From the IMG/VR virus record IMGVR_UViG_2541047879_000002: 38,404 bases of DNA. One strand, written 5' to 3'. Shown piece after piece: positions 28,512 through 30,628 of the stretch. The notes beneath the pieces are model-generated. The model was not told the origin of the DNA. It worked only from the letters and a program-made list of their open reading frames with translations, and did no database searches. Source of the DNA: a virus (taxonomy: Duplodnaviria > Heunggongvirae > Uroviricota > Caudoviricetes). The position numbers were made by a program, and so were the translations under genes. Positions within the stretch are counted from its first letter, which is position 1; the number at the start of each line of letters is the position of its first letter.

Positions 28512-29401
28512 CTCCATACAAAAGAGCTGATGTAGCATTCGAATGGATTCGTGATCTAGAAGAACAGGGTTGTTTTTCAAAAGTATATCTGGCTCATGAC
28601 AGACACCTAGCTCATGACTTGGTGATTAAAGAAATAGAAAAAAAAGAAAACACTAACCACGACGACTACTTTAATGAAGCAAGGCTTCTCTATAAACATG
28701 CACATCCAAATATTGTGCAAGTTCAGTATGCTGCTCAATGTGAGAGCAATATCTATATAGCCATGCCATTTTATCATAATGGTTCGCTAAACCAATTAAT
28801 AAAAAAGATTAATCTTACGAGCAGGGAGATAATACGGTATTCTATTCAATTTTTAAGTGGGCTTTATCATATACACTCAAAAGGTCTTATGCATTTTGAT
28901 ATAAAACCTAATAACATCATGATATCAAACAGAAATGAGGCCATGCTATCTGACTTTGGATTGTCTCAGTTAGTCAATGAGGAATCGAGAGCTGCGCCTG
29001 AGTTTGGATATCATTTTCATGTGCCACCGGAATATTTTTCTTTATCAACAAATGATTATAATTTCACATATGACATATATCAGGCAGGATTAACCATATA
29101 TAGAATGTGTGTTGGATATGATAATTTTGAAAGAGAAAGATCTGCATTTAGAACGATTGAACAACTCAGAGAGTCGATAATTAATGGCTCCTATCCATTA
29201 AAAGAGTATCCTTCCCACATACATAAAAAATTGATAACAATAGTAAACAAATGCATTCATGTAGATCCAAATGAAAGATATCAATCCGTACTAGACGTAC
29301 TAAACGATCTCTCAGCTATAAGTGATGGCGTTCTTGACTGGCGTCTACAGATGACAAAACCAACTAATGATCCTACCCACGTAATATGGACACAGGCCTA
29401 A
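28505..29401 (+). CDS. Hanks-type Ser/Thr protein kinase; 3' end replaced by IS3-derived sequence
   Basis: Motifs LVIKEI (beta3 Lys), HFDIKPNN (catalytic loop), SDFGLS (DFG), [19 protein letters not shown]. The last 11 codons and stop lie inside IS3. Confidence 0.8.
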
Positions 29402-30264
29402 GCGAGGTTCTTGTTTTCAAATTGTTCCGGACTGAGGCCGCCACACCAACTGTGCCGCCGCCACCGATTGTAATCACATTCGATATAATTAAACACCGTT
29501 GCCCGCATTATTTCCCGGCTGATAAAGTGTTCTCCATGGATACATTCCACTTTCAGCGAATGAAAGAAGCTTTCCACGCAGGCATTATCGTAGCAGCAAC
29601 CTTTTGCGCTCATACTTCCACGCAGATTATGCCGCTTCAGTTGCGCCTGATAATCTGCTGAACAGTACTGGCCTCCACGGTCCGTGTGAACGATAACGTT
29701 CCGGGGCCTCTTACGCCGCCACAGCGCCATCTGCAGGGCATCGCAGGCCAGTTGCGCCGTCATGCGTGGCGACATTGACCAGCCAATAACGGCACGTGAC
29801 CACAGGTCAATGACCACTGCCAGATACAGCCAGCCTTCATCTGTACGTAAGTACGTGATGTCTCCTGCCCACTTCTGGTTCGGGCCACTGGCGTAAAAAT
29901 CCTGCTCCAACAGATTTTCTGACACAGGCAGGCCGTGTGCGCGGTAGCTGACCGGGCTGAACTTCCGGGAGGCCTTTGCCCTCAGTCCCTGACGGCGCAG
30001 GCTTGCCGCCACGGTTTTTACGTTAAAGGGGTAACCCTGAGCACGCAGTTCATCCGTCAGGCGTGGGGCACCGTAACGCTGTTTTGACCGGGTAAAAGCC
30101 GCGAGGACAACGCTGTCGCAGTGTTGGCGGAACTGCTGACGCGTGCTTATCCTTGTCCGCCGCTGACACCACGTATACCAGCCGCTGCGGGCCACCCGGA
30201 GCACGCGGCACATTGCTTTGATGCTGAACTCAGCCTGATGTTTTTCAATAAAGACATACTTCAT
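29398..30264 (-). CDS. insF: IS3 transposase OrfB (DDE domain)
   Basis: 288-aa ORF with integrase-core motifs ([16 protein letters not shown]). Confidence 0.9.
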
Positions 30265-30569
30265 TTCAGGCGCTTCGCGAAGTATGTCGCGGCCTTTTGG
30301 AGGATAGCCAGCTCTTCATCCCGTTCTGCCAGCTGGCGTTTGAGACGTGCAATCTCGGTAGACATCTCCAGTTCACGTTCAGAAGACGTCTGCTGATTTT
30401 GCTGTTTACTGCGCCAGTTGTAGAGTTGTGATTCATACAGGCTGAGTTCACGGGCTGCGGCAGTAACACCGATGCGTTCAGCAAGCTTCAGGGCTTCACT
30501 GCGAAATTCAGGCGAATGCTGTTTACGGGGTTTTTTACTGGTTGATACTGTTTTTGTCATGTGAGTCAC
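30261..30569 (-). CDS. insE: IS3 transposase OrfA (HTH)
   Basis: 102-aa ORF overlapping orfB by 4 nt, typical IS3-family frameshift arrangement. Confidence 0.9.
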
Positions 30570-30628
30570 CTCTGACTGAGAGTTTACTCACTTAGCCGCG
30601 TGTCCACTATTGCTGGGTAAGATCATAA

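What the first reader, a model, noticed from the sequence alone, without database searches (positions are those of the whole stretch)
29365..30628. IS3 insertion splits the kinase gene; the intact allele can be reconstructed
A complete 1258-bp IS3 with a TAA target duplication sits inside the kinase reading frame. The final 11 codons and stop of the annotated kinase come from the IS3 inverted repeat. Deleting the element and one TAA copy restores a continuous frame adding about 60 codons. The kinase catalytic core is intact, so the insertion may inactivate, truncate or alter the module; this may be a recently silenced system.
Basis: seen in the sequence. Interest (0 to 1): 0.6.

Follow-up and report, generated by a model that had tools for sequence, protein, structure and literature searches.

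The report
IS3 insertion truncating prophage Stk kinase
A common jumping gene (IS3) has recently landed in a prophage's anti-phage kinase gene (the known 933W-type stk), cutting off its conserved tail domain; this is an ordinary gene knockout and the intact gene is common in other E. coli.

Summary
A complete 1258-bp IS3 lies at 29368..30625, 100% identical to IS3 copies in many E. coli genomes, and is flanked by a TAA duplication. It interrupts a 348-codon kinase gene after codon 288. Removing the IS and one TAA gives a protein identical, residue for residue, to one recorded on 491 contigs. The same DNA is uninterrupted in 223 complete E. coli genomes and 39 phage records.

The gene is stk of Shiga-toxin phage 933W (12 of 348 residues differ), a published abortive-infection kinase co-transcribed with cI. 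The insertion keeps the whole catalytic domain. It removes a confidently modelled C-terminal beta-sheet/helix domain present in every homologue, and replaces it with 10 IS-coded residues. It also separates a downstream 54-codon ORF from its operon.

The event is recent (1 nucleotide difference in 2.5 kb of flanks) but clonal: the 298-aa fusion protein is on at least 17 contigs. Loss of Stk-mediated exclusion is the likely consequence; this is inferred, not shown.

This is an ordinary IS knockout of a known gene. In passing, stk was preceded by a RuvC-fold gene whose catalytic Asp is Arg in 80 of 80 species examined. I found no description of stk as a two-gene cassette.

The parts
27241..27969 (+). 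cI-like prophage repressor (HTH plus S24 peptidase). It is the first gene of the lysogenic operon that carries the kinase cassette. RefSeq starts the gene 12 codons further in.
   Evidence: Pfam Peptidase_S24 and HTH_3. Annotated as an XRE-family regulator in NZ_CP027462.1. Same position as 933W cI.
28050..28511 (+). 153-aa RuvC-fold partner gene. It overlaps the stk start by 7 nt and is intact.
28505..29367 (+). stk 5' part: codons 1-287 and the first two bases of codon 288. It holds the complete Hanks-type kinase domain.
   Evidence: Pfam Pkinase 21-260, E 1e-46. 97% nucleotide identity to 933W stk. Invariant catalytic residues.
29365..29367 (.). Left copy of the TAA target-site duplication.
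   Evidence: Read directly from the sequence. The intact allele has a single TAA here.
29368..30625 (-). IS3, complete at 1258 bp, with its transposase genes antisense to stk. orfB is 30264..29398. orfA is 30569/30560..30261. orfA and orfB overlap in ATGA (-1 frame).
   Evidence: 100% identity over 1258 bp to annotated IS3 copies. Pfam HTH_Tnp_1, HTH_21, rve, rve_2. Terminal repeats.
29368..29401 (+). IS3-derived end of the fusion ORF: the third base of codon 288, then 10 codons ([10 protein letters not shown]) and a TAA stop, all inside the IS3 terminal inverted repeat.
   Evidence: Translation. Alignment of the 298-aa and 348-aa forms.
30626..30628 (.). Right copy of the TAA target-site duplication.
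30629..30812 (+). Orphaned stk 3' fragment: codons 289-348 and the stop. It encodes the C-terminal beta-sheet/helix domain and has no in-frame start codon.
   Evidence: The reconstruction equals P0121 exactly. AF2 strands 290-326 and helix 338-347, pLDDT about 94. No ATG, GTG or TTG in frame.
30815..30979 (+). 54-codon ORF (933W L0081 homologue, phrog_4063). It starts 2 nt after the stk stop. The IS now separates it from the operon by 1.26 kb.
30978..30999 (+). Intrinsic terminator, corresponding to tM of 933W, at the end of the repressor-stk operon.
   Evidence: Terminator scan. Annotated as tM in 933W at the homologous position. Homology with 933W ends at 31005.

Best explanation
The window is a lambdoid prophage of an E. 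coli isolate (GCA_000460075.1). It is integrated next to ybhC, near where I recall the lambda attachment site to be.

Downstream of its cI-like repressor, in the slot where lambda carries rexAB (position recalled from my own knowledge), it carries the cassette known from Shiga-toxin phage 933W. The cassette is a RuvC-fold gene, the kinase gene stk, a 54-codon ORF and the terminator tM. In 933W, stk is expressed with cI in the lysogen. Its kinase is activated by infecting phage HK97 and aborts that infection.

Shown: a standard IS3 transposed into stk at codon 288/289 and duplicated TAA. The gene now encodes the full kinase domain plus 10 IS-coded residues. It lacks the 60-residue C-terminal domain that every family member has. 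That domain cannot be made separately, because the fragment has no in-frame start.

Inferred: the truncated kinase has lost its normal regulation or trigger response, so the abortive-infection function is lost or strongly altered. The 54-codon ORF probably also loses expression through lost translational coupling and polarity across about 1.4 kb of untranslated antisense IS RNA.

Shown: the event is evolutionarily recent, yet it is carried by a clone sampled many times.
For: - IS3 identity and boundaries.
- Exact reconstruction.
- Intact alleles: 224 E. coli records and 39 phage records, including 933W stk of 348 aa.
- Operon layout and tM.
- Published Stk function, read from citing papers: PMC3681748, PMC6356687 and PMC3430580 (expression from pRM).
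- The C-domain is universal. All 41 aligned homologues have 63-72 residues after the invariant W279. The invariant W293 is lost here. The C-domain profile hits 77 of 80 species.
- AF2 model: pTM 0.88, C-domain pLDDT about 94, first strand beginning at residue 290.
- Recency: 1 mismatch in 2509 nt and an IS copy 100% identical to other copies.
- Clonal spread: the 298-aa protein is on 17 contigs and in 27 index blocks, in isolates and a gut metagenome.
Against: - No functional data exist for this allele.
- All catalytic residues are retained, so the truncated protein could still phosphorylate.
- The role of the C-domain (sensor, autoinhibitor, partner binding or folding) is unknown. I could not read the two primary Stk papers.
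- No terminator-like site was predicted inside the IS on the plus strand, so some read-through to the 54-codon ORF is possible.
- None of 5,426 complete RefSeq E. coli genomes carries this junction, so its population frequency is low and poorly defined.
Confidence: 0.85

Rival explanations
1. The truncated kinase is not null. The C-terminal domain is autoinhibitory or dispensable. The IS3 allele therefore yields a constitutively active or differently regulated kinase that still affects phage exclusion or host physiology, possibly together with the intact RuvC-fold partner.
For: The whole Pkinase domain and all invariant catalytic residues are retained. The insertion falls in the lower-confidence linker just before the first strand of the C-domain, so the kinase domain could fold on its own. 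The upstream partner and the repressor are intact and identical to those of intact loci.
Against: A constitutively active abortive-infection kinase should be toxic, yet the allele persists in a clone sampled on at least 17 contigs. The C-domain is retained in essentially every homologue across phyla, which argues that it is needed. pTM 0.88 suggests the two domains pack in a defined way.
Confidence: 0.12
2. The junctions are an assembly artefact: an IS3 repeat wrongly placed in a scaffold. The real genome would then have an intact stk.
For: IS copies are classic sites of misassembly. One metagenome contig ends exactly at the IS end (L004).
Against: Both junctions are read through without gaps. 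A perfect 3-bp duplication flanks a full-length element, which is the signature of real transposition. The left junction, and hence the 298-aa product, recurs in independent assemblies from NCBI, ENA and Logan.
Confidence: 0.01
3. The frame continuity across the IS is coincidental, and the downstream 184 bp was never part of the kinase gene.
For: None found.
Against: The joined ORF equals an existing 348-aa protein exactly. It matches 933W stk in length. The 3' segment aligns with the C-termini of homologues down to 40% identity.
Confidence: 0

Closest known systems
Stk of Shiga-toxin phage 933W (Tyler & Friedman 2004; Friedman et al. 2011, PMID 21985444)
   Same: The reconstructed protein is 348 aa and differs from 933W Stk at 12 residues. 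The neighbours match: RuvC-fold gene upstream, 54-codon ORF and tM downstream. The position after the repressor gene on the repressor strand also matches.
   Different: The gene here is interrupted by IS3. The surrounding immunity region is a different type (YdaS/YdaT-type right-hand genes, KilR, no N gene) and lacks the DUF3024 gene that 933W has between cI and the cassette. Homology to 933W is confined to 27987..31005.
IS3 of E. coli (IS3 family; 1258 bp, 3-bp target duplication; these reference values are from my own knowledge of ISfinder)
   Same: Identical in sequence (100% over 1258 bp) and in organisation: orfA and orfB with a -1 overlap, a DDE rve domain, and TG...CA ends.
   Different: Nothing apart from the insertion site. 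That site is not found in any of 5,426 complete RefSeq E. coli genomes.
IS1-truncated stk in E. coli PS2Canimalfeces12 (NZ_CP180600.1)
   Same: An independent IS-mediated lesion of the same gene in a 933W-type immunity region.
   Different: The element there is IS1X2. It cuts at nucleotide 685, inside the kinase domain, and is accompanied by loss of the 3' part of stk, the 54-codon ORF and tM; no N gene is annotated downstream. No clean reconstruction is possible there.
PD-T4-6 and MADS MAD6 defence kinases (PADLOC / NCBIfam models)
   Same: The Hanks-type kinase domain matches these models (E 1e-36 to 6e-49).
   Different: The matches stop at about residue 275-297, so the Stk C-domain is not covered. 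The RuvC-fold partner matches no PADLOC model. The NCBIfam MAD6 score of 120 bits is far below its 460-bit cut-off.

Membership tests
IS3 (IS3 family insertion sequence) | Full-length element of about 1258 bp, near-identical to reference IS3 | tested here: met
   100% identity over positions 1-1258 to annotated 'IS3-like element IS3 family transposase' loci.
IS3 (IS3 family insertion sequence) | Imperfect terminal inverted repeats ending 5'-TG...CA-3' | tested here: met
   The ends are TGATCCTACCCA... and ...TGGGTAAGATCA, with about 26 of the first 39 positions matching. The repeat finder did not report them because they are too imperfect.
IS3 (IS3 family insertion sequence) | 3-bp direct target duplication | tested here: met
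   TAA at 29365-67 and at 30626-28. The intact allele has one TAA.
IS3 (IS3 family insertion sequence) | orfA (HTH) and orfB (DDE/rve) overlapping in the -1 frame | tested here: met
   orfA is 30569..30261 (HTH_Tnp_1) and orfB is 30264..29398 (HTH_21, rve, rve_2). Both are open and overlap in ATGA.
933W-type Stk abortive-infection kinase | Hanks-type kinase domain with catalytic Lys, HxD...N and DFG | tested here: met
   Pkinase E 1e-46 over residues 21-260. K42, E58, D132, N137 and D150 are invariant in 41 homologues.
933W-type Stk abortive-infection kinase | Uninterrupted ORF of about 348 codons that includes the conserved C-terminal domain (W279...W293, four strands and a helix) | tested here: not met
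   The ORF ends at 298 aa inside the IS3. The feature is met only after in-silico removal of the IS. The locus is therefore a disrupted allele of the family gene.
933W-type Stk abortive-infection kinase | High identity to the characterised 933W protein | tested here: met
   The reconstructed sequence has 12 of 348 amino-acid and 25 of 1047 nucleotide differences from 933W stk.
933W-type Stk abortive-infection kinase | Located after the prophage repressor gene on the same strand and closed by the tM terminator | tested here: met
933W-type Stk abortive-infection kinase | Tyrosine-kinase activity triggered by HK97 infection, with exclusion of HK97 | not testable with these tools
   Known for 933W only through citing papers. 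The primary papers are not held.
PD-T4-6 defence kinase | Match to the family profile over the whole protein | tested here: inconclusive
   The best PD-T4-6 model gives E 1.5e-36, but over residues 20-274 only. PADLOC has no curated cut-off.
RuvC Holliday-junction resolvase (for the upstream partner gene) | RuvC / RNase H-like fold | tested here: met
   [not shown]
RuvC Holliday-junction resolvase (for the upstream partner gene) | Catalytic acidic tetrad, including the N-terminal Asp (E. coli RuvC D7; residue numbering from my own knowledge) | tested here: not met
   By motif position (LG-x-D in RuvC), the residue is Arg in 78 of 79 homologues and Lys in 1. E68 and E140 are invariant. No structure-based residue alignment was available, so the correspondence rests on the motif position.

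The most novel reading that the evidence does not exclude
The thing the IS3 hit may not be a lone kinase. It may be an obligate two-gene system that, as far as I could find, has not been described as such: a RuvC-fold protein with its catalytic Asp replaced by an invariant Arg, translationally coupled to a Stk-type kinase whose fast-evolving C-terminal domain senses the trigger or binds the partner. The pair is found together in 80 of 80 species, from Enterobacterales to Bacteroidota and a cyanobacterium. On this reading, the IS3 allele is a natural deletion of exactly that C-domain. It would leave the partner plus a free kinase domain, with altered rather than null activity.
Probability: 0.3. 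Interest if true: 0.55.

Novelty: already known. Interest (0 to 1): 0.2.

Why it matters
For the finding itself, not much. It documents one more case of an insertion sequence knocking out a prophage-borne abortive-infection gene. It also shows that the 298-aa 'serine/threonine-protein kinase' entries in databases (e.g. EQW48419.1) are IS3 fusion artefacts of stk, not a natural short isoform.

It has modest practical value. The allele is a ready-made C-domain deletion of Stk with an exactly known parental sequence, so a clean pair (truncated versus reconstructed) could test what the conserved C-terminal domain does. A second, independent IS lesion of stk (IS1) hints that the gene is occasionally lost, as expected for a costly suicide system. 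But 223 of 224 complete genomes with stk have it contiguous.

The more useful by-product is the invariable pairing of stk with a RuvC-fold gene across phyla. This suggests that published single-gene views of Stk may be incomplete.

Tried and rejected
- The primary Stk papers (Friedman 2011, Tyler & Friedman 2004) are not held. Stk function is therefore cited through secondary papers and my own recollection.
- I searched for this exact IS3/stk junction in 5,426 complete E. coli genomes and found none. The allele was found instead by exact protein look-up.
- I looked for an otherwise identical prophage with intact stk. The prophages most like the window's right arm match only from about 30980 onward, so they lack the cassette. 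The prophage is a mosaic and no isogenic 'empty site' was found.
- The repeat finder did not report the IS3 terminal repeats because they are too imperfect. They were checked by hand.
- Rfam and tRNA scans of the window found nothing.
- The Foldseek PDB search of the Stk model returned only kinase domains and nothing informative for the C-domain. A PDB sequence search likewise stops at about residue 278.
- Literature searches for a RuvC-like plus kinase defence pair, and for HK97 gp68, gave nothing relevant.
- I considered that IS3 creates an outward promoter driving the 54-codon ORF or antisense stk. Only weak consensus matches were present, so I make no claim.

Full report
1. WHAT IS IN THE SEQUENCE

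A 1258-bp element occupies 29368..30625. Its ends are imperfect inverted repeats (TGATCCTACCCA... and ...TGGGTAAGATCA). TAA flanks it on both sides, at 29365-29367 and 30626-30628.

On the minus strand it carries two intact, overlapping ORFs. One has a transposase HTH domain. The other has HTH_21, rve and rve_2 integrase-core domains.

The whole 1258 bp is 100% identical to loci annotated as 'IS3-like element IS3 family transposase' in many complete E. coli genomes. 3,817 of 5,426 genomes have a near full-length copy. It is therefore canonical IS3, complete, with the 3-bp duplication typical of that element. The reference length and duplication size are from my own knowledge of ISfinder.

The ORF that runs into it, 28505..29401, encodes 298 residues. 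The first 288 are native. Codon 288 becomes AAT instead of AAC, so it still encodes Asn. Ten residues ([10 protein letters not shown]) and the stop are read from the IS3 terminal repeat.

Removing the IS and one TAA yields a 348-codon ORF ending at 30812.

2. IS THE RECONSTRUCTION REAL?

Yes, on several independent grounds.
- The reconstructed 348-residue sequence is an exact match to a protein recorded on 491 contigs (P0121).
- The joined DNA is present uninterrupted in 224 records of complete E. coli genomes (30 of them at 99% identity or more) and in 39 phage records.
- Across the 2509 nt from the repressor gene to the terminator, the window minus the IS aligns without gaps to NZ_CP027462.1. 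There is a single mismatch, at 30658.
- The annotated gene in that genome and in phage 933W is 1047 bp, i.e. 348 codons.

The insertion is also not an assembly artefact. The window is 100% identical to GCA_000460075.1 scaffold KE701493.1. The same 298-aa fusion product is called in other NCBI assemblies and in a human gut metagenome: 17 contigs by cluster look-up and 27 index blocks. No complete RefSeq E. coli genome has this junction.

3. WHAT THE GENE IS

It is stk, the eukaryotic-like kinase of Shiga-toxin phage 933W. The joined 1220-nt stretch (stk through the terminator) is 97.4% identical to 933W, and the protein differs at 12 of 348 residues.

The window's plus strand runs in the direction of repressor and leftward-operon transcription. 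The order is: a cI-like S24 repressor (27241..27969), a 153-codon ORF (28050..28511), stk, a 54-codon ORF (30815..30979) and an intrinsic terminator (30978..30999). A promoter-like site and then kilR, gam, bet and exo follow. This matches the 933W annotation cI / RuvC-like / stk / L0081 / tM.

Homology with 933W is confined to 27987..31005. The cassette is thus a discrete module placed in an otherwise different immunity region, with YdaS/YdaT-type genes on the right, no N gene and no DUF3024 gene.

The prophage ends with a lambda-type integrase (35916..36986) next to a pectinesterase-family gene that I take to be ybhC. The gene name, and that this is the lambda attachment region, are my reading and were not tested.

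According to papers I could read, 933W Stk is a tyrosine kinase activated on HK97 infection. It excludes that phage by abortive infection (PMC3681748; PMC6356687). stk is expressed from pRM only in stable lysogeny (PMC3430580). The primary papers were not available.

4. WHAT THE INSERTION REMOVES

Homologues found in Enterobacterales, Pseudomonas, Acinetobacter, Vibrio and beyond are nearly all 337-353 residues long. The closest ones align to the query end to end.

In an alignment of 41 homologues, the invariant residues include the catalytic set (K42, E58, D132, K134, N137, D150), all upstream of the insertion. They also include two tryptophans, W279 and W293, that bracket the insertion point.

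An AlphaFold2 model of the intact protein is confident (mean pLDDT 87, pTM 0.88). The kinase domain ends with a helix at 262-270. A lower-confidence linker follows (block 281-290, pLDDT 78). Then comes a compact C-terminal domain of four strands (290-297, 300-307, 312-319, 324-326) and a helix (338-347), at pLDDT about 94. IS3 sits two residues before the first strand, so the whole domain is lost.

All 41 homologues have 63-72 residues after W279. This domain evolves about twice as fast as the kinase domain: mean pairwise identity is 26% against 53%. That pattern fits a specificity or sensing module, but this is an inference.

The orphaned 3' fragment has no in-frame ATG, GTG or TTG, so the domain cannot be supplied separately. 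No solved structure is related to it by sequence.

5. LIKELY CONSEQUENCE (INFERRED)

The truncated protein keeps a complete catalytic core but lacks a domain that selection has kept in every relative. The most likely outcome is loss of normal, trigger-dependent Stk activity, and hence of exclusion.

A constitutively active suicide kinase is less likely, because the allele persists in a clone sampled repeatedly.

In the intact allele the 54-codon ORF starts 2 nt after the stk stop. Here ribosomes stop 1.4 kb upstream and the intervening RNA is untranslated antisense IS3, so coupling is lost and Rho-dependent polarity is plausible. No intrinsic terminator was predicted inside the IS on this strand, so some read-through cannot be excluded.

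The event is recent. The flanks are essentially identical to intact alleles and the IS is identical to other copies.

6. HOW UNUSUAL IS IT?

Not very. IS insertions into accessory genes are routine, IS3 is abundant in E. coli, and stk is a known gene. Of 224 complete genomes with stk, 223 have it contiguous. The exception is NZ_CP180600.1, where stk is cut at nucleotide 685 by an IS1-family element. There the rest of the cassette is missing and no N gene is annotated downstream. This is a second, independent IS lesion. Two other short forms in the same 90% cluster (262 aa starting at M87; 308 aa) could not be followed up.

7. BY-PRODUCT: THE CASSETTE IS A CONSERVED GENE PAIR

In Proteus, Pseudomonas and Acinetobacter the kinase sits in quite different contexts: a prophage immunity region, an island beside an Abi_2 gene and an integrase, and a position next to phage tail genes. 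In all three it is preceded by a 152-154-codon ORF overlapping its start by 4 nt. These ORFs are homologous to the window's 153-codon ORF.

A scan of one genome per species returned 80 loci from Gamma-, Beta- and Alphaproteobacteria, Bacteroidota, Ignavibacteria and a cyanobacterium.
- All 80 have a homologue of this ORF on the kinase strand.
- It lies within 60 nt of the kinase start in 71. In the other 9 my naive ORF calls gave kinase ORFs of 368-394 codons, which I take to be over-extended starts, and I did not measure the real gap.
- 77 of the 80 match the C-domain profile.

The partner matches no Pfam, NCBIfam or PADLOC model. I found no paper describing the pair. In the window the partner is intact.

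8. VERDICT

It is an ordinary, recent IS3 knockout of a known prophage defence gene. The interest of the finding as stated is low. The gene-pair observation is the only part that might deserve separate follow-up.

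Noticed in passing
window 28050..28511; loci L006, L010, L013, L018-L097: stk-type kinases are always preceded by a homologous gene of about 152 codons on the same strand, usually overlapping by 1-8 nt. This held in 80 of 80 species from several phyla and in unrelated genomic contexts, so it looks like an obligate two-gene cassette. I found no description of it in the papers or defence-system libraries searched.
   Followed up: partly
[not shown]
   Followed up: partly
window 27987..31005 compared with L001 (933W) 1985..3740: The RuvC-fold / stk / 54-codon ORF / terminator block is a discrete module, 96-97% identical between two otherwise unrelated immunity regions. 933W has an extra DUF3024 gene just upstream of the shared block.
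   Followed up: partly
L017 (NZ_CP180600.1 1228129..1229569): A second, independent IS lesion of stk. An IS1-family element (IS1X2) cuts the gene at nucleotide 685; the 3' part of stk, the 54-codon ORF and the terminator are missing, and no N gene is annotated downstream.
   Followed up: yes
protein cluster of P0001 (P0124, P0130): Other shortened Stk forms exist in E. coli. One is a 262-aa form starting at M87, on 35 contigs including DEC3A/DEC6E strains. The other is a 308-aa form in O103:H2.
   Followed up: no
window 30985..31660: Between the terminator and kilR there is no N-like antiterminator gene. There is a promoter-like site at 31150..31178, set among repeated CAATAGCAATA-like motifs that may be operators. 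The right side of the immunity region is of the YdaS/YdaT type.
   Followed up: no
window 29353..29367: In a search with the left junction, alignments to IS3 ends in other genomes extended 15-20 nt into the flank, at about 70% identity. This may reflect a target-site preference of IS3 or chance.
   Followed up: no
window 289-348 of the reconstructed Stk (30629..30812): The C-terminal domain evolves about twice as fast as the kinase domain (26% against 53% mean pairwise identity). 4 of the 12 differences from 933W Stk fall in it, as might be expected of a specificity-determining module.
   Followed up: partly
window 30626..37400: The prophages in complete genomes that best match the window's right arm (gam, bet, exo, int next to ybhC) match only from about 30980 onward, so they lack the stk cassette. 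The prophage is a mosaic and no isogenic intact-stk relative was found.
   Followed up: partly
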